From Candidatus Latescibacterota bacterium (lineage in GTDB: Bacteria; Latescibacterota; UBA2968; UBA8231): a stretch of 64,000 nucleotides of DNA. The position numbers and the translations under genes are program-made. This document shows positions 1,422 through 20,877 of this stretch, piece by piece. The notes beneath the pieces are model-generated. The model did not search any database. It was not told where the DNA came from and saw only the letters and a list, made by a program, of their open reading frames with translations. Where the stretch lies: positions 704,001 through 768,000 of the forward strand of contig CBDCSU010000004.1 in the NCBI GenBank assembly GCA_965221775.1, in the 5' to 3' direction. Within the stretch, counting starts at the first letter, position 1. Each line of letters opens with the position of its first letter.

Positions 1422-4109
1422 CTACGGGCCCAGGTACACCGTCTTCCGCACGCTCTCCAATCCGCCCTCGAGATAGAGGGCGATGAAATAGACTCCCGAT
1501 CCTCTTTCCCGGGGGGTCCACTCGAACCGGCTCACTCCCGCGCCGAGGACCTCGTCCACCAGTACTTCCTCAAGCTGGCCAAGGGTGTTGTAGACCTCGA
1601 GGGTAACCGCTTTCGGGCTGCCCAGAGTGAGATCGAGCCCAACTGTAGAGAAAGACGGATTGGGATACGCCTCTGACAGATCGAACTCTCTGCTCCCGAG
1701 GGGCCCGTACACGCTGTTGACCTGACCCGGGGTCCCCCCCTCCTCCAAGGAAGCCAGCCACTGAAGGGGATCGGCATTGTCCCCTCCAGGGCCACGCAAC
1801 TCCAGCGTGGTACCATCCCTGCGAATCTCCTCCGGCCACGGCCAACGGTCCGAATAGGTGACGGAGTCGACCAGCCGTCCCTGGCGGTCGTAGAGGCGGA
1901 CCCGCTCTCCACTGCTTCGGAACCCGAATTCGAAGTCTCCCACACAGTCCACCCCCAGAAGCGCTTCCAGCGCCCCCCCATCCTGACACAGCACGAGGAA
2001 CCCGCGCGGCAGGACAACCGTGCCATGGGGAAGCACGAAGGAGTGCTGGTCATCGTCATCCTGCAGGTACCACCCCGAGAGATTCACGATGGCATCACTC
2101 GGGTTGTGGAGTTCGACCCAATCTCCCGTATCCAGGTCATCCGCGGAGTGGTAGTCTATCTCATTGATCACGACACCGGCCTGCACCAGACCGACGGAGC
2201 GGTCCTGTCGATTGACGCGAGCCACGATCGTTCCCAGGGCCGGCGTGAGCAGCTTCATCGTGTCGCCAAGGGCGATGTCGAAGAAGAGATCCCCCAGTAT
2301 CCGGTCACCCCCCAAAGAGTCCGTAGCCGCCGCCCTGTCCGTGGTGAGCAGGAGGTCGGCTCCCGCAGCAATCTCAGTCCCCGGTGGAAACATGAAGCGG
2401 TTGAAGTACTCCCCGGACTGGAAGCTGCAATAGGAAAGATCCAGCCTCGACTCGCCGGTATTGGCTATCCTGACGGAATGCTCCTTGCCCCTTCGCTGAG
2501 GGTCCTCGATTCGCAGGTGCCGATAGTCCTCGATACCGGCGTTGTTCACATTCAAGGCGAAGGTCTTCGTAGCCGTGTAGTTGATGTAGTACAGGCCATT
2601 GTGGGGATACCTGTACTCTCCCGCTCTGAAGCAGTAGGGAACGAGGCCGGTGTACCCCTCCGGCAAGCGCAGACGGTTGCCGTAGACGAGATCTCCCGCC
2701 AGCAAGTCATCATGCTGGCCATCGTCGAAGAGGACGAGTTCCTGCACCGTAATCGGCTCCCCCCGAGTCCCGTAGGAGGACAAGTCCGTGACGTACTCGA
2801 CCACCAGGCTCTGGGGTTCTGGAGAAGTGGCGCGAAAGACCACGCTTCGATCCTCGCCACGGGGTGAGGGAAATGGATTCGAACAGTACAGATTCGTCAG
2901 GGGTCTTGTCTCGAAGAATCTGAAATCCGTCAGGAACGACTTCCTCGCCGCCAGGAAGTCCTTCACGCGTCTTACCTCCATGTCGAATTCCGCGTTGGTC
3001 CCGACCTTGGCCGGATCCCGGTAGACGTCCGATCTGATCAGCTCGTACGTCAGGTCGATCTGCGCTTCCAAGGCGTCGAAGCCGTAGTCGATGACGACAC
3101 TCACCTGCCTCCAGAACGACTCTCGCCACTGCTCGTGTTCCATCAGCCTCCGAAAGAGCAGATGGTTGCTGAGGAATCGACTCTGGAAGATCGTCTCATA
3201 GTATGGCCGGTATTGACCCGTCCAGTGGTTGCCGAAGGAGCTGTCCTGATCCCAGGGGAATATCCGATGGCGATTCTCCTTCGGGTCGAAGAACAGCAAG
3301 GTGTTCTTCGTCAGAGAATCGAAGCTGGAGATCGAGTAGGCGACGGCGAAGAACCGAAGCACGTCTTCCACGTCCAGCAGGAGAGGCGCCTGCTCTTCAA
3401 AGTCCTCATGGCTCAGGTAGAACAGCTGGTTCAAGAGTCGCTGGACATCGGAGTAATCCGAGTCATCCCCTACTTTCTTGTTCCAGGTGGAACGGTAGCT
3501 GTCGTAGTCCAGTAGGGGTGCGGTGCTGCCCCCGTGATCTTCGGACTTGTAGAGGTCACCGCCTTCATGGCCGTAGCGGCGCAGGAAGTCGCGATTCGGC
3601 TCTTCGAGATGGACAAAGACGCCCATGTACTGATCGTTTACGATCAGGTTGACGTGCCTGGCATTCGGAGCTGCATGGCCGAGGAACTGATACAGCTTCA
3701 TGGCAAGGGTGTTGCGCATCAGCGAGATGTCTCTGTACTCGGCGTTGAGATTGAGCTCCTTGCTTGCGAACGGATTGGATCGATCTTCAAACCAGACCTT
3801 CCAGCTCTTCTTTGGAAGAGTCCGGACCGTGGCGCCGCGGAATCGCACCTCGCACTCGTAGCTCTGTCCTGCCCAGAGCATCCGGGCAGGATAGCGAACC
3901 GCGCTGCGGGGAGAGCCGTACAGGGCCTTCAGATGGCCGGGATCGATAGTCAGACGATAGACGGGCAGGTTGAACTCCTGATCCTGGGCGTGCAGGCACA
4001 TCGCCTGCATGCTCGAGAGCAAGCAGGCCCAGAGACTCAGGGCCGGGAGGTTCTCCCTGAACCTGGACACGCCGGTCGGACTCTTCCGCGGATCAGACCG
4101 CAACGTCAT
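1422..4109 (-). CDS. Secreted CotH kinase family protein with lamin-tail domain(s) and FlgD/T9SS-like C-terminal sorting domain
   Basis: Signal-like N-terminus (ALSLWACLLSSMQAMCLHA); CotH motifs VRFRG..PKKSWKV, LNLNAEYRD..MRN, YMGVFVHLE, IFPWDQDSSFG; LTD motif VVINEIDY..DWVELHN..NLSGWYL..GTPG.VN; C-terminal AYPNP..LEVYNTLGQ..SGVYF. Confidence 0.88.
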   Translation of the reverse strand: MTLRSDPRKSPTGVSRFRENLPALSLWACLLSSMQAMCLHAQDQEFNLPVYRLTIDPGHLKALYGSPRSAVRYPARMLWAGQSYECEVRFRGATVRTLPKKSWKVWFEDRSNPFASKELNLNAEYRDISLMRNTLAMKLYQFLGHAAPNARHVNLIVNDQYMGVFVHLEEPNRDFLRRYGHEGGDLYKSEDHGGSTAPLLDYDSYRSTWNKKVGDDSDYSDVQRLLNQLFYLSHEDFEEQAPLLLDVEDVLRFFAVAYSISSFDSLTKNTLLFFDPKENRHRIFPWDQDSSFGNHWTGQYRPYYETIFQSRFLSNHLLFRRLMEHEQWRESFWRQVSVVIDYGFDALEAQIDLTYELIRSDVYRDPAKVGTNAEFDMEVRRVKDFLAARKSFLTDFRFFETRPLTNLYCSNPFPSPRGEDRSVVFRATSPEPQSLVVEYVTDLSSYGTRGEPITVQELVLFDDGQHDDLLAGDLVYGNRLRLPEGYTGLVPYCFRAGEYRYPHNGLYYINYTATKTFALNVNNAGIEDYRHLRIEDPQRRGKEHSVRIANTGESRLDLSYCSFQSGEYFNRFMFPPGTEIAAGADLLLTTDRAAATDSLGGDRILGDLFFDIALGDTMKLLTPALGTIVARVNRQDRSVGLVQAGVVINEIDYHSADDLDTGDWVELHNPSDAIVNLSGWYLQDDDDQHSFVLPHGTVVLPRGFLVLCQDGGALEALLGVDCVGDFEFGFRSSGERVRLYDRQGRLVDSVTYSDRWPWPEEIRRDGTTLELRGPGGDNADPLQWLASLEEGGTPGQVNSVYGPLGSREFDLSEAYPNPSFSTVGLDLTLGSPKAVTLEVYNTLGQLEEVLVDEVLGAGVSRFEWTPRERGSGVYFIALYLEGGLESVRKTVYLGP

Positions 4110-4863
4110 CTCCCCTGCCGATTCGTTCCAGACAGCTGTCGATGACGTAGCGGTACTTCGAGTATCCGCGCTGCACCAGGGAGAAGCGTTTCACCAGGTC
4201 CAGGGCCCAGAAAGGCACCAGGGACTCGGTCTTGATCTCCACGACGACGGGAGAGCCCGCCCACTGCGCGGTGACCTCGTCGTCGTAGTAGCTCATCTCC
4301 TCGTCCCGGCTCCACAGGTCGTATGAACCGCTCATCAGCCGGTAGCGCATGGCGCGGTCGAAGGTTATGCGGCCGTAGGCGTCGACCTCGCTCACGTAGG
4401 GCTCCCGCTCATAGCGCACGTGAAGGACCGGTTCGGTACCGTACAGGTGGTGCAGGTCGACGAAGGAACGGGGCATGGTCTCGTGGCGGGGCGACGTGCG
4501 ATCCTCCCTGGCCACTTGAAGCACCCCGGGCCACTCGCTCGTGGCAATGCGCTCGCGGACCTTCCAGACGGTGTGGCTGTGCCGGTACTTGACCTCGAGG
4601 GTAGCCGAGCCGGCTTGGCCGGTTCCGTAGTAGCGGACCCTCGGCTTGAAGCGCAACAGCTGGCGTAGCCTGGTGTCGTTGTAGAAACGCAACCCCGGAG
4701 TGTCCATGTACACGCTGTTCACCGTGTAGTGTGCCTGCTCCGCGGGGAGGTTGGCGTCGAGGGTGAACAGCGGTTGAATGAACTGGCGGATCTCCGCAGC
4801 CAGTTCCTCGGTCACGGTGTATTTCAACTCGTACCGGTGGATGGGAGAGAGGTCAATCGCCAT
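4093..4863 (-). CDS. VTC / polyphosphate polymerase (CYTH-like) domain protein
   Basis: RYELKY, YTVNSVYMDT, RFKPRVRYYG, LEVKYR, VRYEREPY, RITFD, VVEIK, YSKY; start placed at MAIDLS (4863). Confidence 0.88.
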   Translation of the reverse strand: MAIDLSPIHRYELKYTVTEELAAEIRQFIQPLFTLDANLPAEQAHYTVNSVYMDTPGLRFYNDTRLRQLLRFKPRVRYYGTGQAGSATLEVKYRHSHTVWKVRERIATSEWPGVLQVAREDRTSPRHETMPRSFVDLHHLYGTEPVLHVRYEREPYVSEVDAYGRITFDRAMRYRLMSGSYDLWSRDEEMSYYDDEVTAQWAGSPVVVEIKTESLVPFWALDLVKRFSLVQRGYSKYRYVIDSCLERIGRGDDVAV

Positions 4864-6163
4864 GGCCCCTCGCCTGCCGCGGCAGCGACTGCGGACCGCC
4901 GATCCCCAGCTCGTAGTACAGGAAGTAGAGGGCGTGGGACAGATTGCGCTCGCCCTCGGCGATGGCGACCCGTGCATCCATGATCGTGCGCTCCAGCTCC
5001 AGGATCTCGTCCGCCGGCACCGTGGGATGGTCGTGCGTCCGGACCACCACGAGCGACGCGGCCTGGATGATGGTTTCGGCCTCCCGTCGAGTCAGGTTGC
5101 GGGCGAGCAACGCCTCGGTGTAGTCCGAGAGACCCTCGCAGACCTCGTCGGCAATGCGCTCCCGAACCGATTCCGCCTCCCGCTCGCTCTCCGACACCGC
5201 AAGGGAGAGGCCGGCGAGGTTGTCCGCATTGCGGTTGAACAGAGGGAGCTCTACCCCGAAGGTCAGCTCGTGCCAGTCGTCTTCGGCCCTCTCGACATGT
5301 CGCGACATCTCCAGGAAGGACAACTGCGGCAGCAGCCGCCGGCTCTCGAAGTGGCGCCGGTCGAGGGCGAGCCGATGCCTCTCCTCCGCCAGCCGAAGCT
5401 CCGGGCGGTTGGCCCAGGCGAGGGCCACGAGCTCTTCCTCACTCCCAACGATCTCCGGAAGCGGCTCGGCGGCCAGCTGGATCCGCGCAGAGACGCCCGT
5501 CAGGCGCCGCAGCCTGCGTTCCTCCTCCCGCAGCGCATGCAGGCTTCGAAGGTGGGTCTGCCGCGCCTCGGCGACGGCGGTCCTGGCCTTGGTGAAGTAC
5601 ACAATCGACCGCCGGCCGAGATCGACCATGGTCTCGATCTGGGAGATCCGCCGGCTCTCGTTGTCGATCCGCCCGGCTGCCAGGCGTGCCAGCTCAGCGT
5701 ACATGGTGAGGTCGGCGCAGGACCGGCGCACCCGCGAGGCCAGCCAGTGCCGTCCGCGGATCGCCTCGGCCCTGCGCTCCCACATGGTCACCTGCTTCCG
5801 CTGTCTGCGCATCCTCGCTTCGCCAGGTGCTGGCGGACGCCAGCGGATGCCGATCTCGAGCTCGTCGACTCGGGCCCTCCCGCGCCGGGCGGCCAGGTTG
5901 CGCACGCGGATCTCGGGATTGTCGATCCAGTCGAGGGAGCGCATGCGGTACGTGCGGAGATCGGCCTCCGACTCGAGCAAGCCAACGCGGGGGTTGTTGC
6001 GCAGACCGATGGCCACCGTCTCTTCGATGGTCAGAGTCAGCTCCTCCCTGCCGCCGCCGGCGGCCCCCGGGTCCTGGCCGCCCTCGCTCGGGGCCGCAGT
6101 CGAGCAGAGGCTGACGCCGAAGGGGACCAGCACAGCCGCGAGAGACCGGCCGCCGCGCTTCAT
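4853..6163 (-). CDS. TolC family outer-membrane efflux protein
   Basis: Signal peptide; LTLTIEETVAIGLRNNP, LVALAWANRPELR, GVELPLFNRN; adjacent to HlyD gene. Confidence 0.8.
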   Translation of the reverse strand: MKRGGRSLAAVLVPFGVSLCSTAAPSEGGQDPGAAGGGREELTLTIEETVAIGLRNNPRVGLLESEADLRTYRMRSLDWIDNPEIRVRNLAARRGRARVDELEIGIRWRPPAPGEARMRRQRKQVTMWERRAEAIRGRHWLASRVRRSCADLTMYAELARLAAGRIDNESRRISQIETMVDLGRRSIVYFTKARTAVAEARQTHLRSLHALREEERRLRRLTGVSARIQLAAEPLPEIVGSEEELVALAWANRPELRLAEERHRLALDRRHFESRRLLPQLSFLEMSRHVERAEDDWHELTFGVELPLFNRNADNLAGLSLAVSESEREAESVRERIADEVCEGLSDYTEALLARNLTRREAETIIQAASLVVVRTHDHPTVPADEILELERTIMDARVAIAEGERNLSHALYFLYYELGIGGPQSLPRQARGHGD

Positions 6164-7215
6164 GGGCCCGCTCTCCCGAGCACGGAGGATCGATCGATGA
6201 AGCCCACGCGCACAGACTCACCAGGCAGCAGAAGGTGACCGGCCTCGAGGACGACGCGGACCTTCCGGGCCCACAGCATCTGCCCGCGAAGCCACAGCCG
6301 CTCCGGCATCGGTGAGTACCCTGGATGGACGAAGTCGATCCGCCCCCGGGCGTCGAAGTCGCCCGACCGTCTCGACATCACTTCCACCGCCTGGCCGACC
6401 TGCAACTGCAGGTCCTCCGTCTCCGGGACGTAGACTTCCACCACGGAGGCCTGGGCACTCTCCACGGTGACGATGGGCAGGAAGGCGTCGACCGTACTGC
6501 CCGGCAGAGCCAGGATCCGGGAAACCAGGCCATTGGAAGGCGACCGGACCGTTCGATACTCGATGCGCTGGTCGATGAGCGTGATCGACTGACGGACCTC
6601 GTGGATGCGCTGCAGGCGGTCTCCGAGAAGTGAGGTCAGGATACTGTCGCCGAAGGCGGCCGAATCGTCGCTGCCGAGGTGCACCACTTCGGGCCGGATG
6701 AGCGCCGACTGTTCGGCGACGGACCGCGCCAGGACATCGCGGCGAATGGTCATGCGGGTCAGATCGCGGTCATGGCCCAGGCCGGCCTTCTCCGCGGCCA
6801 CCAGCGCCTCGATCTCCCGGCTGAGGGCATCGAGCTCGGCTTCCTCCGCCTGTACCTGGGCGTATCGCTCGGACACGCGCAGCCGCAGCAGGTCGTACTC
6901 GACGTGGTAGCGGCGCCGGTCCGCCGCCGCGATCGACTCCAGGACGGCCAGCTCTTCCGCACGCAGCCGCCTCTCCGCCGACAGGTCCGACACGTCCAGG
7001 CGAGCCAGGACCTGTCCGGCCGCGACGGCCTGGCCCACTGCGGCGTGCATCTCGTGGATGGTTCCCCCCTCGCGGGCCCCCACCGACTGCACCGTGGACA
7101 CGACGGTGCCCACCAGGTACGGATCGACCTGCCACTGCCAGTAGCCGTAGACGGCCGCCATCACGGCCACCGCCCACAGGGCACGGAAGGAGTTCCTCGT
7201 CAGCCAACGCTTCAT
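6160..7215 (-). CDS. HlyD family membrane-fusion (periplasmic adaptor) protein
   Basis: N-terminal TM; lipoyl half-motifs GTIHEMHAAVGQAVAAGQVLARLD and VRSPSNGLVSRI flanking a coiled coil; beta-barrel ending LLPGESVRV. Confidence 0.85.
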   Translation of the reverse strand: MKRWLTRNSFRALWAVAVMAAVYGYWQWQVDPYLVGTVVSTVQSVGAREGGTIHEMHAAVGQAVAAGQVLARLDVSDLSAERRLRAEELAVLESIAAADRRRYHVEYDLLRLRVSERYAQVQAEEAELDALSREIEALVAAEKAGLGHDRDLTRMTIRRDVLARSVAEQSALIRPEVVHLGSDDSAAFGDSILTSLLGDRLQRIHEVRQSITLIDQRIEYRTVRSPSNGLVSRILALPGSTVDAFLPIVTVESAQASVVEVYVPETEDLQLQVGQAVEVMSRRSGDFDARGRIDFVHPGYSPMPERLWLRGQMLWARKVRVVLEAGHLLLPGESVRVGFIDRSSVLGRAGP

Positions 7216-7218
7216 GGG

Positions 7219-7935: not shown

Positions 7936-7951
7936 TGCAAGAATTGTGCCG
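7936..7951 (-). promoter_or_regulatory. sigma54 (-24/-12) promoter of the DUF4956-HlyD-TolC-VTC-CotH operon
   Basis: Minus strand reads CGGCACAATTCTTGCA: GG-N10-GC, close to consensus TGGCACG-N4-TTGCW, 37 bp before the ATG. Confidence 0.8.
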
Positions 7952-8043: not shown

Positions 8044-8125
8044 CTCCGGCTCTCGGGACAACCGCCTCTTCCGCTTTCCTGGACGGGCACTCGGCCCAGT
8101 GGGGGGTCAGTCCGATTCTCCGGAC
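8044..8125. promoter_or_regulatory. Putative bEBP enhancer (UAS) array
   Basis: Perfect-arm palindrome GTCCG-ATTCTC-CGGAC at 8110-8125; degenerate copies TTCCG-CTTTCC-TGGAC at 8069-8084 and CTCCG-GCTCTC-GGGAC at 8044-8059. Confidence 0.65.
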
Positions 8126-13680: not shown

Positions 13681-15587
13681 TCGAACAGTCCCACCAGGTC
13701 GTCCCTCCCCAGCATTCTCGCCAGGACCGCAGCCCTGTGGGCATTCTCCGCGGACAGCCCGCCGCGCCGCGCGATGCGCAGCATCTCCACCCAGGCCTGT
13801 CCAACCGTCACCGGCACCAACACTTCGACCACGGCGCCGGGATCGACCTGCAGACGCTCGACGTAGTCGGCCTGGCCGGGACGCAGGACGTGCAGCTTGT
13901 AGGTCCCGGGCAGGAGAGTCGAGAGGCGGATGGGCAAACGGTCGCCGAAGCGGTTCTCCTCGGTCGCCTCCTGAAGGAAGAGCCCGGCCTCAAAGGCGAC
14001 CTCATCCCCCAGATCGAGGGTATCGACCCGCGCTCTGACGCGCAGTCGGGCCGGCTCCTGCTCGAGGAGGATCCGCACCGTGGTTTCGTCGACCACCTCG
14101 ATACGCTCGGGGGCGACCGGATAGCCGACCCCGTACTGAGCCGCCCGCAGCTGCAGCAGCGTCAGGTTCGCCCGACCGCGGATCAGGCGCTCGTCGAAGA
14201 CCACGAGGCCCCTTGAATCCGCCCGGCCCAGCAAGAGATCCGCGGCCCACAGCTCGATACCGGGCCAGGGTACCCCCTGCCCGCCGACCACGGTCACTGC
14301 CACGGGCTTGGGCTCGAACACGACCCGCAGATCGTAGACGCCCGGCTCGCGAGACTCGGTGGCAAAGCGGCCCCGCTCGAAGGCGAGCCCCAACTGGACG
14401 AGGCTGATCGCTTCGAGTTCGTCGGGGGCCAGTCGCTTTCTGACCCGCACCCGCCCCCGGCGGTTCGTGGTGCCGGCCGCCTCTCCGTTGAGCAGGACGT
14501 CGACGTCGGGGAAGAGCCGCCCGGAGGTGTCCAGCACCTCGATGGTGAACAGGTTCTCGGCCGGGCGCAGCAGAACCGACCTGTGGATGCGGCCCGGACG
14601 GAGCATCTCCACCACGGGCGAGGTCGGACTGGCTTCGTACCCGGGCCGCACCACGGCGAAGGTGTGGCGGCCAGGCTCCACGAGAAAGACCCCCGGGGTC
14701 ACTCCGAGGGTGTCGCCGTCGAGCACGACGATCGAGCCGGGGGGGTCGGAGTCCACCTGGAGGAGGGGCGGCACGATCGAAAAGCTGCGCACGGCCTCCT
14801 CATTCGACAGCCGGGGCCCCTCCCCGTCCGGGTCGGTCACCCGGACCGCGACCTCCCCGAGGCCGACGTGACCATCGCCGTCTTCATCGCGGCCCGTCTT
14901 CAGCTCCTGGAGCAGGCGCGCAGTGAACCCGCCGTCCACGGCGGGCCGGCGGCCGACTTCGACCACGCCAGCGCTCTCCGGAAGGAAGTCCCCCCGGTGT
15001 CCGCCGGGGGTGAAGCCGTCGTACTCCCGGTCGTCCGCCGGCGAATCGGGGCTGGTGAAACCCTTGCCGCCCATGTCCCCGCTGTACGAGGCGTCGATGA
15101 CCGCGCAGGTCCGAGTCGTTCTCAGGCGCTGGAGGAACTGGCCTATCTCGTCGTCGCGCAGGAAGCTCTCCCCCGTCGCCCCCTGGGCGTCAAAGGGCAA
15201 GAGGCACTCGTCGTACTGATCGACCTGCTCGTCGAGAAACAGATCGTCCTCGAGGCGGGAACCGCGCCCCGAGAAGTAGAACAGGAACAGATCGTCCCCG
15301 CCCACCTGGCTGATGAGCGCCTGAAAGGCCCGATGAATGCCCTCGTAGGTGGCGGCCGAATCGGTGAGAGCCACGATGCGGTCGAACCCGCCTTCAACCG
15401 TCAGGAAGCGCTGCAGAGCGCCGACTTCGGACACCGGGTGCTCCAAGGGCGGCACGCCCGATCTCTCGGGATAGGCCGCCACGCCCACCAGCATGGCCCA
15501 GCGTTGAGCGCTCCAGGAGGCTTGACACAGACCCAGGAGCAGGACCGCCACAGCCATTCCCCTCCGCCGGCCGCCCATGGGACTCAC
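13677..15587 (-). CDS. Exported caspase-like (C14, catalytically degenerate) + PEGA domain protein
   Basis: Signal peptide; RWAMLVGV..Y, LTDSAAT, LFYFSGRG, DECLLPFD, IDASYSG; PEGA VDSDPPGSIVVLDG..LGVTP; start uncertain (GTG 15587, ATG 15578 or 15557). Confidence 0.8.
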   Translation of the reverse strand: MSPMGGRRRGMAVAVLLLGLCQASWSAQRWAMLVGVAAYPERSGVPPLEHPVSEVGALQRFLTVEGGFDRIVALTDSAATYEGIHRAFQALISQVGGDDLFLFYFSGRGSRLEDDLFLDEQVDQYDECLLPFDAQGATGESFLRDDEIGQFLQRLRTTRTCAVIDASYSGDMGGKGFTSPDSPADDREYDGFTPGGHRGDFLPESAGVVEVGRRPAVDGGFTARLLQELKTGRDEDGDGHVGLGEVAVRVTDPDGEGPRLSNEEAVRSFSIVPPLLQVDSDPPGSIVVLDGDTLGVTPGVFLVEPGRHTFAVVRPGYEASPTSPVVEMLRPGRIHRSVLLRPAENLFTIEVLDTSGRLFPDVDVLLNGEAAGTTNRRGRVRVRKRLAPDELEAISLVQLGLAFERGRFATESREPGVYDLRVVFEPKPVAVTVVGGQGVPWPGIELWAADLLLGRADSRGLVVFDERLIRGRANLTLLQLRAAQYGVGYPVAPERIEVVDETTVRILLEQEPARLRVRARVDTLDLGDEVAFEAGLFLQEATEENRFGDRLPIRLSTLLPGTYKLHVLRPGQADYVERLQVDPGAVVEVLVPVTVGQAWVEMLRIARRGGLSAENAHRAAVLARMLGRDDLVGLFE

Positions 15588-17614
15588 GGCTGCTTGAGAC
15601 GGTACTTGCGGATCAGGTCGTAGAGGCGGCTGCGCGACAGGCCCAGATCGCTGGCCACGATTTCCAGCTGCCAGTCCTTCTCCTCGAGCTTGTCCAGGAT
15701 CCACTTGCGATCGAATTGCTCTCGGGCCTTGCGCAAGGTCAGGTCCCTGTCGAGGTCGAGCTCCGCCGCTTCCCCGGGCTCCTTCTGCAGGCGGCCCCAG
15801 AGATGGAGGACCTGCAGGCGCTCTCCCCCGGCCATGACCCGGGCGCTGGTCAACTGATTCTCCAGCTCGCGGATATTCCCCGGCCACTGATAGCCTCTGA
15901 GCAGCTCCATGGCTGCCGGGTCGATCCCGGCGGGGTAGTCGGCCAGGAAGTGCTCCACCAGCAGCGGGACATCGATGAGCCGCTGACGCAAGGGCGGCAG
16001 GGGGATGACCAACACGTAGAGGCGGTAGAACAGATCGGCTCGGAACCGCCCCTCGGCCACTTCCTTTTCCAGGTCCCGGTTGGTGGCGCAGACCAGGCGC
16101 ACGTCCACCGGGCGCGGGTGCTCCTCCCCCACCCGCTGTACCTCCCCCTCTTGCAGCACCCGCAACAGCTTCACCTGGGTGGACGGGCTGGTCTCGCTGA
16201 TCTCGTCGAGGAGCAGAGTGCCCCCGGTCGCTGCCTCGAACAGTCCCTTGCGATCCTCGAAGGCCCCGGTGTAGGCCCCCTTCTTGTGACCGAACAGTTC
16301 GCTCTCGAGCAGACTCTCGGTGAGGGCGCCGCAGTTGATGCCGAGGAACCGCCCGTGGCGCCGGGCGCTCGTGCGGTGGATTGTGCGCGCCACCTCCTCC
16401 TTCCCCGTGCCCGTCTCACCGTGCACCAGTACGGTGATGTCCGACTCACTCGCTTTCTGCATGAGGACGAAGACGCGACGCATGGTGCGGCTCTGACCGA
16501 TGATGTGGGGGAATGGCTGCTCCCCCTGGGGCACGGGTTCGACCTGGGGCAGATGCACACCCCCGCCCGCCGGAACCGGAAACTCTTCGGCTCCGGTTCC
16601 ACCCCGATCCTCTGCGCGCCGGAGGGCTTCTTCCAGCAGTCTGTTGCGAATGCGGCAGAGACCATCGTCCCCCCGGCGAATGGCTCCCAGCAGTTCCAGT
16701 TGGGTAACCAACGGGGAGGTGCGGTCGTGGCGCGGTTGCTTTCTGCCCTCGAGTAGAGCTCTGAGCCACTGGGAGCCCTCGGCAGAACGCGTGAGACCCG
16801 CCACGACCCGCTGGAGATTGTCGTCGCCGCGGCTGAGCAAGCGCTCCGCTGCCTCTCCGACCTTCAGGTCGGGATCGGCTCCGAGGAGCACACAGAGGCG
16901 CGCCGTGAGATTGGGGTGCCCCTGGGCCCACTCGTGGACCGGGCCGGTGAGAGCCCCCCCTCTGGCGTCGGCTCGCTCGAGGAGTTGCAGCATCTGCCCA
17001 ACCCCCTCGATATCGAAGTCGGTGGTGTAGACCTCCTCGCTGATGTTGAAGGGCGACAGACCGCTTTCGGGAGCGATGAGGGTTCGCGGATCCGTGGCCC
17101 CGGCAAGGACGAAGACGTAACGCTCGAACTCGGGCTGGGTAGCGCGTTCGTTGTACACCGTGCGGATGGTGCCGAAAAAGCCCTCCCGCCAGGGCTGGGG
17201 AACCGCCTCGAACTCGTCGAGACTCACGACGATGCGCTTCACCCCTGCGCAACCCGCTATGGTCTTGAGGTCCTGGTAGAACCCGATCGATTCGGCGCCG
17301 GCCTGCACCGTACTCCGCTCCGCCACGGACAGGGCCCCGGCAATGCGATCACCGACAAAGCCGTAGAGCTGGGCACATCCGGCGTCTTTCACCGGGGTCA
17401 GGTCGATCGGCACCGAGACGTACATATCGGCTGACAGACGGCGGTGCAGGTGGTACAGGAGGCTCGTCTTGCCCGTCTGGCGGGCCCCCAGGACGGTCAC
17501 GTAGTGGCCGCGCCGGACCAGTTCCAGCACTTCGTCGTCCACCGGTCTTTCCACGTAGAGGCTCTGCTCGGGATCGGCGATGGGGCCGCGCGTCTGGATC
17601 TTCCTGAGTGCCAT
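15584..17614 (-). CDS. sigma54-dependent enhancer-binding protein with N-terminal AAA_35/STAND-like ATPase and C-terminal Fis-type HTH
   Basis: N-terminal YVERPVD..GARQTGKTS, SLDEFE, SPFNI, GHPNLT; central HGETGTGKE, ESELFGHKKGAYTGA, LLDEI, KLLRVLQE, ATNRDL, FRADLFYRL, WPGNIRELEN; HTH ASDLGLSRSRLY. Confidence 0.92.
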   Translation of the reverse strand: MALRKIQTRGPIADPEQSLYVERPVDDEVLELVRRGHYVTVLGARQTGKTSLLYHLHRRLSADMYVSVPIDLTPVKDAGCAQLYGFVGDRIAGALSVAERSTVQAGAESIGFYQDLKTIAGCAGVKRIVVSLDEFEAVPQPWREGFFGTIRTVYNERATQPEFERYVFVLAGATDPRTLIAPESGLSPFNISEEVYTTDFDIEGVGQMLQLLERADARGGALTGPVHEWAQGHPNLTARLCVLLGADPDLKVGEAAERLLSRGDDNLQRVVAGLTRSAEGSQWLRALLEGRKQPRHDRTSPLVTQLELLGAIRRGDDGLCRIRNRLLEEALRRAEDRGGTGAEEFPVPAGGGVHLPQVEPVPQGEQPFPHIIGQSRTMRRVFVLMQKASESDITVLVHGETGTGKEEVARTIHRTSARRHGRFLGINCGALTESLLESELFGHKKGAYTGAFEDRKGLFEAATGGTLLLDEISETSPSTQVKLLRVLQEGEVQRVGEEHPRPVDVRLVCATNRDLEKEVAEGRFRADLFYRLYVLVIPLPPLRQRLIDVPLLVEHFLADYPAGIDPAAMELLRGYQWPGNIRELENQLTSARVMAGGERLQVLHLWGRLQKEPGEAAELDLDRDLTLRKAREQFDRKWILDKLEEKDWQLEIVASDLGLSRSRLYDLIRKYRLKQP

Positions 17615-17639: not shown

Positions 17640-20600
17640 CTACGCAGAGGCAAGGTCCCGGGAGAACCCCGTTCCGGGCTTCACTTGTTCGATGGCCTCG
17701 TCGATGTTCTTCACTCTGTGGAGGATTTCCGGGAAGGCCTTGGCGGTGAAGGCATAGGGGGGACGATCCGTCTCCAGGATGGCGCACATGTGGAGATTGG
17801 ACAAGGCCGTGTCCAGAGCCGCTCCCGGAACCTCCAGGCCGGCGCGCCGCAAACCCTCTTCCAGCCCTTCCCGCGACAGCCCGGGGCCGCCAGGCGCCTC
17901 GGCCATGACCAGGGTCACGGTGCGTTCGAGGGGATCGCCCTGGCCCCAGATGGTCTCGATGAACTCGGCCTGGAACTCGCCCGAATCGAGCACGCTCTGG
18001 CAGTGGTACGGGGTGACCCGCCGGCTCTGCTCGCGGGCCATGCGGCGCACGAGCCGGTCGCACAGGTACTGGATGATGCGCGGATGGCAGGAGGAGACAC
18101 CGAGAATCCGTCCCACGAGGTCTTCGGCATCGACCAGCTCTATGTCCATCAGCTCCATGGGCTCGACGACGATGCGCCGGGCATTGGCCGGATCGAGATA
18201 GCGCAGAGGCAGGGCGTCACAGAAATTGAGCATGGGCGAGGCCAGGTCGTGGAGCTGACCGTGGAGAATGCGCTCACCGCTGAACACGAAGCGGCACTTG
18301 CCCTCTTCCGACAGGGCCCTGAAGGTCTTGAAGAGGAGCTCGTCGTGATGGGTGTCAAAGCGCAGCAGGGCGTCCATCTCGTCCATGAGGAAGACGATCG
18401 TCTTCTCCTCTTCCTCGTATAGCCGGGTGATGAGCTGGTGGAAGCGCTCGGGCTCCTCCCCCTCCACCTGCAGGCCCCAGTTGCTGCGCACGTGGGCGAA
18501 GAAAGCCTGGTAGTTGGTCACCGCCTGATAGTTGGCGTAGAAGGGCCGGTAGTCGCTGGCGGGAAGCCTGAAGGTGCGGTACACCTTCTGCAACACGGAA
18601 GTCTTGCCGATGCGGCGCCCCCCGACGATGCCGATGTTCTTGGTATGGAGCGTCTGGACGATGGTCTTGATCTCCTCTTCGCGGCCGAAGAAGATCGTGT
18701 CCGGCACAGGTCCCGTCGTGACATAGGGAGAGACGACGATGAGATCGACCTGTTGCAGCACCGGGCGCATGAAGACACGGTGGCGGAAGTGGTCGGTGGA
18801 AGCGGCGATCCTCCTGATCTCCGCCTGGCTCAGAACTATGAAGTCGTATCCCAGGCCCTGGGCCTGGGTCCTGATGGTGAAGCGGGCCTCCAGCTCGTTC
18901 AGGTAGACCACCACCAGGGCAAAGCGGCCGATGAGCCCGAAGGACTCCATCAAGGTCCGCAGATGGGACAGGTCCTCCGCCTCGAAGACCGGGCGCTGGA
19001 GGAAGATCAGGGGAAAGGGTGATGGGATCTTGGCGCCCCGCAGCGATGTGGTGTGGACGACAGTGCCCCAGAAAGGCCCACTCCGCCGGCCCGCTTCCTC
19101 GTCCACGGTGAAGCCCAGGGTCCTGCACAGCAGGTCGGCCCCCTGTCCCGCGGCCTCGGCAAAGGCCCGGAGCGCGGACGGACGGCTGGCGTTCAGCAGG
19201 CCGAGCCCCTGTCGCCAGTGCTCGTCGAACTGCCGCAGAACCTGGCGCTGCGCCGGGGCAAAGGCGATGTGCTCGCCGTCGACCTCCAGGTCGAACTCCT
19301 CGTGTTCGGCCATGTAGCGCTGTCCGGCGTACGAGCGGTGGATGCGGGGAATGCCCCCCAGGTGAAACCGGCCCACCGATCTCCCATCCTCGTGCGGGCC
19401 GGTCCCCTGGTCGAGATCGTCGTTCCACACTCCGAGGAGCCCTTCCTCGATCTGCCGGTCCCAATTGGGGTAGCTGCGCCGCCGGTCCTCCTTCACCTGC
19501 CGCTGGCGCCGGATGCGGTACCCCAGACAGGCGGCGACCAGCAGGGCTGCCCCGCTGCCCGCCACGATCCGGTCCCAGGGCCGCGCGGTGGGCGGCGGCT
19601 TCAAGCGTGCCCGGACGGGCTCCTGGCGGTTGGAGCCATCCACGGTGAGCTCCTTCTTCCAGACCGCCTCTCCCTTGCTGACCCGCAGGGTGTGGGTGCC
19701 CGGTTCCAGGAAGACCTCCACCGGCGTCGTCAGGTCGACCAGGCGGTCGTCGATCCACACCTGGGAGTGGAGGGAGTCGGAATCGATGACCAGGGTCGCA
19801 CCGGCCAGGGGCAGACTGCGGAACAGGCGATTGGCCGGCTGCAGACGGGGCCGTGCCGTCTCTCGGAGCCGGCCCAGCTCGTGCAGCGACTCGTACACCT
19901 CGCCCAACCTCACCACGTGGTCGGCCTCCCGCAGCTGCGCGGCCAGAGGCACGGTGAACACGCCCTCCCGGATCGCCTCGGCCGGACCGCCGGCGCTGAG
20001 CACGGCGGCGTCTGCCGGCAGGTAGTCGGTCCGGGTGATGCCGTCCAGGAAGCCGGCTTCCGCCATTTTCTCCAAGGGGCTCGTCACACCCTTGTCCGAC
20101 AGCCCGTCGCCGGTGTACCCGGCGTCGATGGCGACGACCGTGTAGCGCCCCCGCAGTCTGCGCAACTGGCGCCCCAACTCGTCGTCGCGCCAGTACGTGT
20201 CCGTCTGTCCATGGACGGCATCGACCAACAGCAGGCACTCGTCGAGCCGGTCCGGTTCCATATCCGGATAGAGGTCGTCCCTTGTGCGTGTGCCGCGGCC
20301 TGAGAAATAGAAGAAGACCAGGTCCTCCTCCCCCACCTGGTCGGACAGACGGGCGAAGAGCGTTTGCAGGGAGGCCCGGGTGGCCTCGGAGTCGACCAGG
20401 CTGCTGATGCGCTCGGGGTCAAAGGCGGCGCCCTCGATCAGGGCCTGCCGCACGAGTTCGACATCGAGCGGGGCTCGCTCCAGGGGTTGGAAGCCCGAGT
20501 CGGGACCATAGGCTCCGACACCGACCAGAATGGCCCAGCGTTGGCGGAAGGAGAGGTGCTCGTACTGGCTGCTGGCCGCGGCATCGGCCAGCGGCAGGGC

Positions 20601-20666
20601 CAGGATCAACGTCAACACGCCTGTCAGGCGGCACCGAGGGCCTGGGACGGCAAGTCCCTGGGTCAT
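17640..20666 (-). CDS. Transmembrane protein: exported pseudo-caspase + PEGA + TM + cytoplasmic STAND-like AAA ATPase
   Basis: Signal peptide from MTQGL (GGAGG RBS); RWAILVGV, FFYFSGRG, IDAGYTG; PEGA-like QVWIDD..TTP..LEPGTHTLRV; TM IVAGSGAALLVAACLGY followed by RIRRQR; SPYVTTGPV..FFGREEE, GGRRIGKTS, FLMDEMD, CHPRIIQYLC. Confidence 0.85.
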   Translation of the reverse strand: MTQGLAVPGPRCRLTGVLTLILALPLADAAASSQYEHLSFRQRWAILVGVGAYGPDSGFQPLERAPLDVELVRQALIEGAAFDPERISSLVDSEATRASLQTLFARLSDQVGEEDLVFFYFSGRGTRTRDDLYPDMEPDRLDECLLLVDAVHGQTDTYWRDDELGRQLRRLRGRYTVVAIDAGYTGDGLSDKGVTSPLEKMAEAGFLDGITRTDYLPADAAVLSAGGPAEAIREGVFTVPLAAQLREADHVVRLGEVYESLHELGRLRETARPRLQPANRLFRSLPLAGATLVIDSDSLHSQVWIDDRLVDLTTPVEVFLEPGTHTLRVSKGEAVWKKELTVDGSNRQEPVRARLKPPPTARPWDRIVAGSGAALLVAACLGYRIRRQRQVKEDRRRSYPNWDRQIEEGLLGVWNDDLDQGTGPHEDGRSVGRFHLGGIPRIHRSYAGQRYMAEHEEFDLEVDGEHIAFAPAQRQVLRQFDEHWRQGLGLLNASRPSALRAFAEAAGQGADLLCRTLGFTVDEEAGRRSGPFWGTVVHTTSLRGAKIPSPFPLIFLQRPVFEAEDLSHLRTLMESFGLIGRFALVVVYLNELEARFTIRTQAQGLGYDFIVLSQAEIRRIAASTDHFRHRVFMRPVLQQVDLIVVSPYVTTGPVPDTIFFGREEEIKTIVQTLHTKNIGIVGGRRIGKTSVLQKVYRTFRLPASDYRPFYANYQAVTNYQAFFAHVRSNWGLQVEGEEPERFHQLITRLYEEEEKTIVFLMDEMDALLRFDTHHDELLFKTFRALSEEGKCRFVFSGERILHGQLHDLASPMLNFCDALPLRYLDPANARRIVVEPMELMDIELVDAEDLVGRILGVSSCHPRIIQYLCDRLVRRMAREQSRRVTPYHCQSVLDSGEFQAEFIETIWGQGDPLERTVTLVMAEAPGGPGLSREGLEEGLRRAGLEVPGAALDTALSNLHMCAILETDRPPYAFTAKAFPEILHRVKNIDEAIEQVKPGTGFSRDLASA

Positions 20667-20732: not shown

Positions 20733-20748
20733 AGCAATATGCGTGCCG
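20733..20748 (-). promoter_or_regulatory. sigma54 (-24/-12) promoter of the pseudo-caspase/STAND/bEBP operon
   Basis: Minus strand reads CGGCACGCATATTGCT: GG-N10-GC, matches TGGCACG-N4-TTGCW except the first base. Confidence 0.82.
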
Positions 20749-20802
20749 GCGACAAACCGCTCGAAAACGTCCAACGGCGGGGCATGTAGCGTGCGGCGGC
20801 CA

Positions 20803-20877
20803 GCCTGGCTCGCCGGACTTCATGCGGTTTTCTGGACAGGGCAGCCCCGGATCGGTCGTCTGTCCGATTTTCCGGAC
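20803..20877. promoter_or_regulatory. Putative bEBP enhancer (UAS) array
   Basis: GTCCG-ATTTTC-CGGAC at 20862-20877 (15/16 identical to 8110-8125); degenerate ATGCG-GTTTTC-TGGAC at 20822-20837 and GCCTG-GCTCGC-CGGAC at 20803-20818. Confidence 0.65.

What the first reader, a model, noticed from the sequence alone, without database searches (positions are those of the whole stretch)
1422..20877. Candidate undescribed trans-envelope signalling system: pseudo-caspase receptor, STAND relay and sigma54 activator controlling a VTC/CotH export operon
Seen: ten co-oriented genes in two tightly packed operons. Each operon has its own sigma54 promoter and the same palindromic enhancer, and operon 1 encodes a sigma54 activator. 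Its parts span every compartment: surface propeller protein with a sorting CTD, PorV-like OM barrel, exported pseudo-caspase/PEGA protein, inner-membrane pseudo-caspase-TM-STAND protein, and cytoplasmic STAND-bEBP. There is no histidine kinase, receiver domain or ECF sigma. Known: bEBPs usually take input through REC, GAF, PAS or FHA domains, and STAND ATPases signal by oligomerisation. Inference: an NLR-like ATPase-to-ATPase relay carries an envelope signal to sigma54, with positive autoregulation and the DUF4956-HlyD-TolC-VTC-CotH operon as output. I do not know of a characterised system with this layout.
Basis: partly seen in the sequence, partly recalled or inferred. Interest (0 to 1): 0.88.

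Follow-up and report, generated by a model that had tools for sequence, protein, structure and literature searches.

The report
Envelope receptor cluster driving sigma-54 genes
An uncultured marine bacterium carries a rare gene cluster in which a surface protein, an outer-membrane barrel, two inactive caspase-like proteins and two linked ATPase switches appear to carry a signal from the cell surface to a sigma-54 gene activator, a wiring that does not seem to have been described.

Summary
Ten co-oriented minus-strand genes form two tight operons. Each has a -24/-12 sigma-54 promoter about 115-160 bp downstream of the palindrome GTCCGGANAATCGGAC, which occurs exactly twice in the 5.36 Mb genome. 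Both elements are conserved islands in two relatives with about 90% protein identity. Operon 1 encodes a signal peptide-pseudo-caspase-PEGA-TM-NTPase receptor, an AAA_35-sigma-54 activator, an exported paralogous pseudo-caspase/PEGA protein, a divergent PorV-like barrel and a BNR propeller with a sorting tail. This five-gene unit recurs in a relative about 72% identical, without operon 2 beside it.

New support for a relay comes from three results:
- The receptor's cytoplasmic module is a cross-phylum family of single-pass proteins with swappable ectodomains.
- In Chloroflexi-labelled members the ectodomain is the specific counterpart of this operon's separate propeller.
- Sister genera hold a non-orthologous parallel: an nSTAND2-activator, a sigma-54 promoter, an NTPase-TM-PEGA receptor and further nSTAND2 proteins.

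Operon 2 (DUF4956-HlyD-TolC-VTC-CotH) is a known, widespread, uncharacterised cassette. A third similar promoter lies elsewhere in the genome. No binding, ATPase relay or rpoN dependence is shown, and no structure or complex prediction returned a result.

The parts
20862..20877 (-). Enhancer (UAS) of operon 1, GTCCGGAAAATCGGAC. A weaker second site, TGTCCAGAAAACCGCAT, lies about 40 nt downstream.
   Evidence: The block is conserved in L035 and L036.
20733..20748 (-). Sigma-54 -24/-12 promoter-like site of operon 1, CGGCACGCATATTGCT.
   Evidence: It is conserved in L035 and L036.
17640..20666 (-). Receptor of 1008 aa. Domain order: signal peptide, pseudo-caspase, PEGA, single TM helix (367-385), a 270-300 aa juxtamembrane domain with no Pfam match, a P-loop NTPase (nSTAND1-like, Cdc6/ATPase_2-like), then a C-terminal region.
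15584..17614 (-). Sigma-54 activator of 676 aa. It has an N-terminal AAA_35 NTPase (Walker A GARQTGKTS, Walker B LDEFE), a sigma-54 interaction AAA+ domain (GAYTGA loop) and a C-terminal Fis-type HTH.
13677..15578 (-). Exported protein of 633 aa: pseudo-caspase (SGRG, DASYSG), PEGA and beta-sandwich repeats. It is a paralogue of the receptor ectodomain (42% identity).
12079..13680 (-). 533-aa protein with a signal peptide. The N-terminal half is a divergent PorV/PorQ-like outer-membrane barrel. The C-terminal 230 aa end in a TPR-like stretch.
8399..12082 (-). 1227-aa surface protein: BNR/Sortilin-type propellers, Ig-like domains and a C-terminal FlgD_ig / T9SS-like tail.
8110..8125 (-). Enhancer (UAS) of operon 2, GTCCGGAGAATCGGAC.
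   Evidence: It is invariant in L035 and L036.
7936..7951 (-). Sigma-54 -24/-12 promoter-like site of operon 2, CGGCACAATTCTTGCA, 37 nt before the ATG at 7899.
7219..7899 (-). DUF4956 inner-membrane protein of 226 aa with three hydrophobic segments.
6160..7215 (-). HlyD-type periplasmic adaptor.
4853..6163 (-). OEP/TolC-like outer-membrane channel.
4093..4866 (-). VTC-domain protein resembling a polyphosphate polymerase.
1422..4109 (-). CotH kinase-like protein with lamin-tail domains and a T9SS type A sorting tail.
   Evidence: In one search, TIGR04183 scored 31.5 bits against a cut-off of 23.

Best explanation
MODEL. This is a sigma-54 regulatory circuit whose input side is an envelope-spanning receptor set rather than a kinase. 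The steps below are inferred.
1. The BNR propeller is put on the cell surface through its T9SS-type tail and held at the PorV-like barrel. It is the primary ligand sensor.
2. The soluble pseudo-caspase/PEGA protein links the outer-membrane pair to the paralogous pseudo-caspase/PEGA ectodomain of the inner-membrane receptor. These domains act as binding modules, not proteases.
3. The receptor's cytoplasmic P-loop NTPase switches state or oligomerises.
4. That state is passed to the related AAA_35 NTPase at the N-terminus of the activator. This controls assembly of the activator's sigma-54 AAA+ ring.
5. The activator binds TGTCCGG-N-CGGACA-type enhancers and opens sigma-54 promoters.

CANDIDATE TARGETS IN THIS GENOME.
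- The activator's own operon, which would give positive feedback.
- The DUF4956-HlyD-TolC-VTC-CotH cassette.
- A VIT-VWA surface protein gene on another contig.

SHOWN.
- The gene set, the protein topologies and the loss of the catalytic residues.
- The cis-elements, their uniqueness in the genome and their conservation.
- Family-level and fusion links between the parts.

INFERRED. Every protein contact, the direction of signal flow, the ligand, and rpoN and activator dependence.
For: CIS-ELEMENTS.
- The exact 16-mer palindrome occurs only twice in 5.36 Mb, each copy upstream of a strict GGCAC-N5-TTGC core. There are 43 such cores genome-wide.
- Of 21 sites within 2 mismatches of the 17-mer, only 5 sites at 3 loci have a strict core within 320 nt downstream.
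- Both elements are invariant islands in L035 and L036.
- rpoN is present.
- Among 15 activators in the genome, none lies near the third locus.
- The HTH of a related STAND-activator, which sits beside a similar enhancer, finds this activator's HTH as its best match in the genome.

RECEPTOR LOGIC.
- The topology is signal peptide, then TM helix, then basic residues.
- His to Arg and Cys to Gly/Ser replacements appear in alignment to metacaspase-9 and by direct reading.
- SGRG is kept in all 12 caspase-bearing homologues among 37 examined, including Poribacteria-labelled ones at 36-39% identity.
- The conserved module is a TM helix, about 270-300 aa, then GGR[RK]IGKT. Walker A and B are invariant in 29 sequences.
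- Ectodomains vary. Peptidase_C14 occurs in 10 of 29, PEGA in 7 of 29 and Sortilin/BNR in 6 of 29. Some members have none.
- The NTPase is the best conserved part, 94% identical to L051.

FUSION LINK.
- The operon's propeller aligns collinearly with the ectodomain of receptor homologue P0051 (34% identity, E 5e-69).
- Genome-wide, that ectodomain's best hit is this propeller: 218 bits against 74 for the next hit.

GENE LINKAGE.
- Full-length receptor and AAA_35-activator occur in the same 3 of 168 genomes of the phylum.
- The five-gene order is kept in L051.
- Activator, caspase-bearing protein and barrel homologues share a longest-contig length of 30581.
- A 38% barrel homologue and a 47% AAA_35 protein share a longest-contig length of 8545.

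INDEPENDENT PARALLEL. In G164, G106 and G098 the layout is an nSTAND2-activator, then a sigma-54 promoter, then an NTPase-TM-4xPEGA protein. G106 and G098 add nSTAND2 alone and either nSTAND2-SpoIIE or a shorter nSTAND2 protein. The G164 contig ends inside the NTPase gene.
Against: - No physical contact was tested. One structure job never finished, and the complex job was never accepted.
- The two NTPases are only marginally similar (BLASTP E 0.002 over 62 residues).
- The receptor's nSTAND1 match is below Pfam's cut-off (23.7-25 bits against 27.1).
- The barrel's PorV match is far below its cut-off (25.3 bits against 90).
- All strong instances come from one genus plus two or three metagenome contigs, so co-occurrence is not phylogenetically independent.
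- In L051 operon 2 is not adjacent. I saw no matching palindrome there. The only promoter-like site has one extra spacer base.
- The third-locus cassette is also present in G166, where the activator was not found. That genome is 83% complete.
- The closest AAA_35 relatives outside the activators carry a TIR domain or a membrane anchor. That fits a conflict system as well as it fits signalling.
Confidence: 0.5

Rival explanations
1. The activator senses a cytoplasmic signal on its own through its AAA_35 NTPase. The other four genes of operon 1 are simply co-regulated envelope cargo (an adhesin-like propeller, its T9SS-type carrier barrel and structural periplasmic proteins). The receptor-like NTPase protein then has an unrelated role.
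For: - Activators often sit beside their targets.
- Every sigma-54 unit here includes a protein with a T9SS-type tail: the propeller, CotH and the VIT-VWA protein.
- The genome has many PorV paralogues and tail-bearing proteins.
- No contact between the two NTPases is shown, and their similarity is marginal.
Against: - The AAA_35 domain of 345 aa has no sensor repeats.
- The receptor gene stays directly upstream of the activator in L051.
- The propeller-receptor fusion in other lineages ties 'cargo' to receptor.
- The parallel nSTAND2 clusters again pair a STAND-activator with a membrane NTPase-PEGA protein.
Confidence: 0.25
2. This is a counter-invader (conflict) system of the multi-STAND type predicted by Kaur and co-workers. 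A surface or periplasmic sensor would detect phage or a competitor, and paired STAND NTPases would fire an effector. Here the effector happens to be a transcription activator that remodels the surface.
For: - The caspase domains match NCBIfam 'caspase, EACC1-associated type' below its cut-off.
- The NTPase family matches nSTAND1 in 25 of 29 members.
- nSTAND1/2, inactive caspases and PEGA domains are described in predicted conflict systems (passages of PMC7159879 and PMC8195603).
- The nearest AAA_35 relatives are fused to TIR, CHAT, SpoIIE or metallophosphatase domains.
Against: - PADLOC gave only generic matches to the activator domain and the caspase domain, with no system-specific model.
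- The caspase domains are extracytoplasmic and catalytically dead.
- No toxic effector is encoded in the cluster.
- The output genes are a widespread envelope cassette.
- This rival differs from the best explanation mainly in the nature of the signal.
Confidence: 0.17
3. The shared motifs are chance or leftover duplicated DNA. The two operons would be unrelated neighbours.
For: - The loose sigma-54 pattern is not enriched in the window.
- Operon 2 is not adjacent in L051.
Against: - None of 100 shuffles gave two palindrome matches.
- There are only two exact copies in the genome.
- Both motifs are invariant islands in diverged intergenic DNA of two relatives.
Confidence: 0.03

Closest known systems
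Sigma-54 enhancer-binding proteins with non-receiver sensor domains (for example RtcR with its CARF domain, NorR with GAF, PspF controlled by PspA)
   Same: The central Sigma54_activat AAA+ domain is full length (229.8 bits), followed by a lid domain and a Fis-type HTH. The best PADLOC and NCBIfam matches are to RtcR/PspF/NifA/NorR-type activators over residues 363-674. The N-terminal domain presumably gates ring assembly, which is family knowledge recalled from memory.
   Different: The N-terminal domain is a P-loop NTPase (AAA_35, 47.7 bits), not CARF, GAF, PAS, REC or FHA. Only three other proteins with this fusion were found among 29 hits. Two full-text searches combining STAND NTPase or STAND/NACHT terms with sigma-54 or enhancer-binding terms found no paper describing such a fusion.
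STAND transcription regulators such as MalT, which is held in check by the membrane transporter ATPase MalK (recalled, not tested here)
   Same: A signal-gated NTPase of the STAND/ORC-like class controls a DNA-binding output. A membrane-associated ATPase partner modulates it.
   Different: MalT uses a LuxR-type HTH and sigma-70, has its own sensor repeats and has no paired TM-STAND receptor. Here the output is a second AAA+ ring acting on sigma-54.
Predicted multi-STAND conflict systems (nSTAND1, and the nSTAND2 two-gene system; Kaur et al., eLife 2020 and 2021, PMC7159879 and PMC8195603, passages read)
   Same: NTPases of the same class are encoded as pairs. Inactive caspases are proposed as binding modules, and PEGA domains sit beyond TM segments. 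The parallel clusters in G164, G106 and G098 carry true nSTAND2 domains (132-145 bits).
   Different: A find for 'sigma-54' in the main text of each of the two papers returned no occurrence. No window protein reaches the nSTAND1 or nSTAND2 cut-off. The output here is transcription, not a toxic effector.
Trans-envelope signalling to alternative sigma factors: FecA-FecR-FecI-type cell-surface signalling (recalled), and DdvA/DdvS of Myxococcus xanthus (PMC11506125, search listing and start of abstract only)
   Same: An outer or periplasmic sensor is coupled through a single-pass inner-membrane protein to an alternative-sigma regulon. Earlier notes of this scan say DdvA has a periplasmic caspase-like (CHAT) domain.
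   Different: Those systems use an anti-sigma factor and an ECF sigma. Here there is no ECF sigma or anti-sigma. The transducer is an NTPase pair feeding sigma-54.
CotH / polyphosphate-polymerase (VTC) / DUF4956 accessory gene set of Gram-positive pel loci (Whitfield et al. 2020, PMC7112168, passages read)
   Same: Operon 2 holds all three families above their Pfam cut-offs. Earlier notes of this scan list the trio 232 times in at least 217 genomes. One of those notes describes a version with an adaptor and a TolC-like channel.
   Different: Here the cassette sits behind a sigma-54 promoter with a dedicated enhancer, next to its presumed regulator. Its biochemical function remains untested everywhere.

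Membership tests
Sigma-54 enhancer-binding protein (bEBP) | Full-length Sigma54_activat AAA+ domain plus lid domain | tested here: met
   PF00158 scored 229.8 bits over profile positions 1-167 of 168. AAA_lid_14 scored 58 bits.
Sigma-54 enhancer-binding protein (bEBP) | GAFTGA-type sigma-54 contact loop (motif recalled from memory) | tested here: met
   The sequence reads GAYTGA in ...FGHKKGAYTGAFED..., a one-residue variant. Its function was not assayed.
Sigma-54 enhancer-binding protein (bEBP) | C-terminal Fis-type HTH | tested here: inconclusive
   HTH_8 was not listed for the window protein at E<=0.01. Orthologues P0006 and P0007 carry PF02954 as a precomputed hit. The paralogue in L103 has HTH_8 at 32 bits. 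The C-terminus aligns with it.
Sigma-54 enhancer-binding protein (bEBP) | Sigma-54 in the genome and -24/-12 promoters at the targets | tested here: met
   The rpoN DNA-binding domain scored 206.8 bits. Promoter cores were found. Activity was not tested.
AAA_35 NTPase (PF14516) | Match above the Pfam cut-off, with Walker A and B intact | tested here: met
   The match scored 47.7 bits against a cut-off of 27. GKTS and DE are invariant in alignment A1.
STAND NTPase, nSTAND1 clade (PF20703) | Match above the Pfam cut-off | tested here: inconclusive
   The window protein scored 23.7-25 bits against a cut-off of 27.1. 25 of 29 family members match at E<=0.001, the best at 1.1e-8. The nearest solved relatives by profile are Cdc6/ORC and archaeal ATPase_2.
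Caspase / metacaspase (Peptidase_C14) | Domain match | tested here: met
   The two proteins scored 33.8 and 45.8 bits against a cut-off of 21.4.
Caspase / metacaspase (Peptidase_C14) | Catalytic His-Cys dyad | tested here: not met
   Aligned to metacaspase-9, SGHG corresponds to SGRG. The position of the catalytic Cys, which the two solved chains print as G or A, is Gly (DAGYTG). That the native residue there is Cys is recalled from memory. The exported paralogue has SGRG and DASYSG. Both are therefore pseudo-enzymes.
PorV/PorQ outer-membrane barrel family | NCBIfam NF033709 above its cut-off | tested here: not met
   The match scored 25.3 bits against a cut-off of 90, over residues 37-83 only. 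Transitive support exists. Of 16 proteins picked from the 150 listed hits (168 found), all 11 short hits passed the cut-off. The 5 full-length homologues scored 23-52 bits. No fold was obtained.
T9SS cargo (C-terminal sorting domain) | Type A sorting tail, with T9SS machinery in the genome | tested here: met
   CotH scored 31.5 bits for TIGR04183 against a cut-off of 23. The propeller scored 27.1 bits for FlgD_ig against 27, with partial matches to the ends of PorZ and PorU. The genome holds two PorU matches and five PorV-family matches above cut-off.
VTC-DUF4956-CotH cassette | All three families adjacent | tested here: met
   CotH scored 184.8 bits, VTC 99.5 bits and DUF4956 40.6 bits, all above their cut-offs.
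Known anti-phage defence systems (PADLOC 2.0) | A system-specific protein model | tested here: not met
   Only generic hits to the RtcR/PspF activator domain and the caspase domain were found. Two weak candidate-model (PDC) hits had E>1e-4.
Two-component or ECF cell-surface signalling | Histidine kinase, receiver, ECF sigma or anti-sigma in the cluster | tested here: not met
   None appears among the ten genes or the flanking ORFs.

The most novel reading that the evidence does not exclude
Membrane-anchored STAND-type receptors with PEGA-bearing ectodomains, paired with STAND-effector adaptors, form a general and so far unrecognised class of bacterial transmembrane signalling. It would stand beside two-component and ECF/anti-sigma systems. 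In this class an NLR-like NTPase-to-NTPase oligomerisation relay replaces phosphotransfer. The effectors seen on these adaptors include a sigma-54 activator, a SpoIIE phosphatase, an OmpR-type DNA-binding domain and TIR. In diderms the relay would be extended to the cell surface by a T9SS-anchored propeller, a PorV-like barrel and a periplasmic pseudo-caspase connector.
Probability: 0.3. Interest if true: 0.9.

Novelty: new variant of a known kind. Interest (0 to 1): 0.72.

Why it matters
Known routes from the bacterial envelope to transcription are phosphorelays, anti-sigma proteolysis or release, and one-component membrane regulators. An NTPase pair that couples an extracytoplasmic pseudo-enzyme receptor to a sigma-54 activator would be a different logic, close to eukaryotic NLR signalling.

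It would also give a function to three kinds of unexplained proteins:
- bacterial pseudo-caspases
- PEGA ectodomains
- AAA_35 and nSTAND proteins, which are at present filed as conflict systems

It also supplies a candidate dedicated regulator and inducing circuit for the VTC-DUF4956-CotH cassette. That cassette is widespread and biochemically unexplained. Its promoters could therefore be used to find the conditions under which the cassette is expressed.

The two short enhancers and promoters make the hypothesis directly testable in a heterologous host.

Tried and rejected
STRUCTURE PREDICTION.
- A job for the receptor's cytoplasmic part (alignment A4) was accepted. It was still unfinished after ten collecting calls, the last being.
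- No fold, and no fold search, was obtained for the juxtamembrane domain or the barrel.

COMPLEX PREDICTION. The job (receptor cytoplasmic part with the AAA_35 domain) was never accepted because the queue was full or had been full moments before. This happened. There is no verdict of any kind.

OTHER SEARCHES THAT ADDED LITTLE.
- The ESM Atlas search on receptor residues 390-660 gave one unnamed cluster at score 0.90, which is uninformative.
- PDB sequence searches found nothing significant for the barrel or the AAA_35 domain. The single hits had E 0.67 and 0.18.
- Rfam found no family in 1-22000.
- The terminator scan was not above chance (9 against 6.7). No sigma-70-like promoter was found (0 against 1.4 expected). 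Both are weak evidence.
- The genome of L051 could not be searched for operon 2 or the enhancer because the record is not held.
- Five other caspase-bearing loci of the phylum (L069-L073) share only the caspase domain and are not this system.

RNA EVIDENCE.
- One metatranscriptome run (X20, word share 0.05) gave contigs at about 90-93% likeness over pieces of all five operon-1 genes and little over operon 2.
- These are contigs of a relative, and DNA carry-over is not excluded. They show neither transcription nor its absence.

LITERATURE AND EARLIER NOTES.
- Paper searches for AAA_35/PF14516 returned unrelated hits.
- Earlier-findings look-ups by place, by relatives and by sequence returned nothing.
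- Supplementary files of the Kaur papers, which hold gene-neighbourhood tables and may list related architectures, were not seen.

Full report
WHAT IS THERE.

The window is G000:C4:704001-768000 of a 5.36 Mb, about 70% G+C genome in six contigs. Records of its two near relatives are titled as Latescibacterota or Gemmatimonadaceae MAGs. Near-identical DNA is held by runs labelled sponge or marine metagenome.

Ten minus-strand genes fill 1422-20666. Inside each operon the neighbours overlap or lie at most 25 nt apart. A 499-nt spacer (7900-8398) separates the two operons. The flanks hold a convergent GMC oxidoreductase, a divergent peptidase S15 and hydantoinase genes. No histidine kinase, receiver or ECF sigma is present.

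CIS-ELEMENTS.

- Promoter-like sites: CGGCACGCATATTGCT (20733-20748) and CGGCACAATTCTTGCA (7936-7951) are the only minus-strand matches to the sigma-54 consensus in this stretch.
- The loose pattern is not enriched in the window (5 matches against a mean of 7.15).
- The strict core GGCAC-N5-TTGC occurs only 43 times in the genome on both strands.
- Upstream of the cores, by 115 and 160 nt, lie GTCCGGAAAATCGGAC and GTCCGGAGAATCGGAC. In the window there are 2 matches against 0.21 expected, and none of 100 shuffles reached 2.
- These two are the only exact copies in the genome.
- In the two relatives (L035, L036; proteins 87-93% identical except one 75% HlyD match) the intergenic DNA has many substitutions and indels. 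The enhancer and the -24/-12 blocks stay invariant or nearly so.
- rpoN is present.
- I take the two-promoter, shared-enhancer observation as confirmed. Its activity is untested.

THE PROTEINS.

Activator, 676 aa:
- It has an AAA_35 NTPase domain at 28-251 (47.7 bits).
- It has a full Sigma54_activat domain (229.8 bits) and a lid domain.
- It carries a GAYTGA loop and a C-terminal Fis-type helix-turn-helix.

Receptor, 1008 aa:
- It has a signal peptide and one TM helix at 367-385, followed by RIRRQRQ. The first 366 residues are therefore outside and the remaining 620 or so inside.
- Outside are a caspase domain (33.8 bits) and a PEGA domain.
- Aligned to Arabidopsis metacaspase-9, SGHG is SGRG. 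The residue at the catalytic cysteine position is glycine.

Exported 633-aa protein:
- It is 42% identical to that ectodomain.
- It reads SGRG and DASYSG, so both caspase domains are pseudo-enzymes.
- SGRG is present in all 12 caspase-bearing homologues among 37 proteins examined. That includes Poribacteria-labelled proteins at 36-39% identity, so the loss is old and maintained.

533-aa protein:
- It has a signal peptide and only a short, sub-threshold PorV/PorQ match (25.3 bits against a cut-off of 90).
- An exhaustive search gave 168 hits.
- Of 16 that I picked from the 150 listed, all 11 proteins of about 300 aa pass the PorV_fam cut-off. The 5 full-length homologues score 23-52 bits.
- I read it as a divergent PorV-like barrel with an added C-terminal part of about 230 aa. 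This is not confirmed by a fold.

Surface proteins and secretion:
- The genome has two PorU-type sortases, a canonical PorV beside one of them, and about 48 further matches confined to the C-terminal tail of that profile.
- CotH carries a type A sorting tail (31.5 bits against a cut-off of 23). The propeller ends in a FlgD_ig/PorZ-like tail.

HOW FAR THE SYSTEM REACHES.

- Among 168 genomes of the phylum, the full-length receptor and the AAA_35-activator occur in the same three genomes: G000, G160 and G165. That is two of the nine other species of the genus.
- A scan of species genomes found only those two relatives. 145 stretches matched a pattern and 2 encode a relative.
- A metagenome scan found one more distant locus, L051 (activator N-domain 72% identical).
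- L051 has the same five genes in the same order. Protein identities are 74% (receptor), 71% (activator), 74% (pseudo-caspase/PEGA), 56% (barrel) and 53% (propeller). A TPP-enzyme gene follows, not operon 2.
- Upstream in L051 I saw no matching palindrome. The only promoter-like site has one extra spacer base. The HTH is only 63% identical.
- Matching longest-contig lengths suggest two further instances. Activator P0007, caspase protein P0040 and barrel P0072 share 30581. AAA_35-only protein P0009 and barrel homologue P0073 share 8545.
- The conserved unit is therefore the five-gene operon 1.
- The tie to operon 2 rests on the shared enhancer in one genus.

NEW COMPARATIVE EVIDENCE FOR A RECEPTOR-TO-ACTIVATOR LINK.

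(i) The receptor's cytoplasmic part defines a family.
- A TM helix is followed after about 270-300 residues by GGR[RK]IGKT. Walker A and B are invariant in 29 aligned sequences.
- 25 of 29 members match nSTAND1 at E<=0.001. The window protein itself stays just below the cut-off.
- N-terminal parts differ: pseudo-caspase/PEGA, BNR/Sortilin propellers, a short stub, or cytoplasmic HEAT/NACHT or kinase-FHA modules.
- This is the pattern of a signalling module with exchangeable sensors.

(ii) There is a fusion link.
- The first 610 residues or so of this operon's separately encoded propeller align collinearly with the ectodomain of P0051, a Chloroflexi-labelled receptor homologue (34% identity, E 5e-69).
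- The reverse search of the whole genome returns this propeller as best hit: 218 and 207 bits, against 74 bits for the next locus.
- So what one lineage builds as a single protein, this diderm encodes as a surface protein plus a periplasmic and inner-membrane set.

(iii) There is a non-orthologous parallel.
- In G164, a member of the same genus without the AAA_35-activator, a 697-aa protein joins nSTAND2 (138.5 bits) to Sigma54_activat.
- It is followed by TGTCCGGGAAACTGGAC, a GGCAC-N5-TTGC core and a P-loop NTPase gene cut by the contig end.
- The two activators align end to end (38% identity). Their recognition helices are almost identical: SRSRLYDLIRKY against SRSRLYELIRKY.
- nSTAND2 N-domains of this type occur in 12 of 168 genomes, 11 of 75 in the same family, and in none of G000, G160 or G165.
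- In G106 and G098 the cluster runs as follows: nSTAND2-activator, sigma-54 promoter, a 793- or 821-aa protein with an N-terminal P-loop NTPase, one TM helix and four PEGA domains, then nSTAND2 alone, then nSTAND2-SpoIIE (596 aa) in G106 or a shorter nSTAND2 protein (363 aa) in G098.
- A membrane-anchored, PEGA-bearing NTPase beside a STAND-activator has thus arisen twice in this family.

REGULON.

- A search for the enhancer with up to two mismatches gave 21 sites. Only five sites at three loci have a strict promoter core within 320 nt: operon 1 (a strong site plus a weak site 40 nt on), operon 2, and G000:C6 near 1117266-1117358 (a strong site plus a weak site 41 nt on).
- The C6 locus precedes a VIT-VWA protein with a FlgD_ig tail.
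- No activator gene lies near that locus among the 15 in the genome.
- The same cassette of about 130 nt is multi-copy. G160 has two copies and G165 three, one of them with a damaged -12 element. Where a downstream gene was scanned, it encodes a VIT-VWA orthologue or a secreted protein with LDL-receptor-B, dockerin and FlgD_ig domains.
- In five genus members without the activator, three genomes (92-96% complete) lack the cassette. G166 (83% complete) has it. G164 has the variant beside its own nSTAND2-activator.
- This fits, but does not prove, control by this class of activators.

OPERON 2.

- CotH, a VTC polyphosphate-polymerase-like domain and DUF4956 are a known accessory trio next to Gram-positive pel loci (passages of PMC7112168).
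- Earlier notes of this scan list the trio 232 times. One note describes a version with an adaptor and a TolC-like channel (AI notes, used as leads only).
- Its function is unknown. Polyphosphate synthesis and export, with phosphorylation at the surface, is an inference.

WHAT IS KNOWN AND WHAT IS NEW.

- Passages of Kaur et al. 2020 and 2021 describe nSTAND1 and nSTAND2, inactive caspases as binding modules and PEGA beyond TM segments in predicted conflict systems. A find for 'sigma-54' in the main text of each paper returned nothing. Their supplementary tables were not seen.
- Searching 'STAND NTPase' together with 'enhancer-binding' found no paper. A wider STAND / sigma-54 / NtrC / NACHT search listed nothing relevant by title or abstract.
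- PADLOC gave only generic domain hits.
- I therefore rate the circuit a new variant of known kinds (sigma-54 activators with unusual sensor domains, and paired STAND systems). It is not a member of any characterised system.

LIMITS.

- No structure or complex prediction was obtained (see Tried and rejected).
- The two NTPases are only marginally alike (E 0.002).
- The strong instances are few and closely related.
- Every protein contact, the direction of signalling, the ligand and rpoN dependence remain inferences.

Noticed in passing
G000:C6 about 1117266-1117358 (L052: promoter region about 13160-13360, gene 10735-13161, minus strand): A third enhancer/promoter unit. It reads TGTCCGGGAAACCGGAC, then TGTCCAGGAAACTGGAA 41 nt on, then GGGCACGCTTCTTGCG. 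It precedes a VIT-VWA protein with a FlgD_ig tail. No activator gene lies nearby.
   Followed up: partly
L074-L079 (G160, G165), L089 (G166): The same promoter cassette of about 130 nt is multi-copy in relatives. Where scanned, the downstream genes encode secreted LDL-receptor-B/dockerin/FlgD_ig proteins or VIT-VWA orthologues. One G165 copy has a damaged -12 element.
   Followed up: partly
L090 (G164:C140), L103 (G106:C1:1370001-1390000), L104 (G098:C5:8001-27000): Clusters with an nSTAND2-sigma-54 activator, a sigma-54 promoter, an NTPase-TM-4xPEGA membrane protein, stand-alone nSTAND2 and nSTAND2-SpoIIE. In L103 a divergent sigma-54 promoter faces an fn3 protein gene.
   Followed up: partly
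window about 20895-20917: A conserved inverted repeat, GGCCGTTTCCGC..GAACGGTC, lies between the operon-1 enhancer and the divergent peptidase S15 gene. It is kept in L035 and L036. Its function is unknown.
   Followed up: no
L036 about 13214-13244: The pseudo-caspase/PEGA orthologue in this relative matches in two overlapping pieces in different frames. It is either a frameshift or an assembly error.
   Followed up: no
window 8248: DNA-run contigs of two studies (X5, X7) carry a 28-nt insertion here. X7 also has small deletions at 8303-8344. All lie in the variable part of the spacer, upstream of the operon-2 enhancer.
   Followed up: no
window 2001-4000 and 9001-10000: G+C falls to 0.58-0.62 inside the CotH gene and part of the propeller gene, against about 0.70 elsewhere in the genome. 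This may mark foreign origin or domain shuffling.
   Followed up: no
P0008, P0009 (relatives of the activator's N-domain): The closest AAA_35 relatives outside the activators are a TIR fusion with C-terminal hydrophobic segments and a 375-aa protein ending in a membrane anchor. The same adaptor domain may therefore serve non-transcriptional outputs.
   Followed up: no
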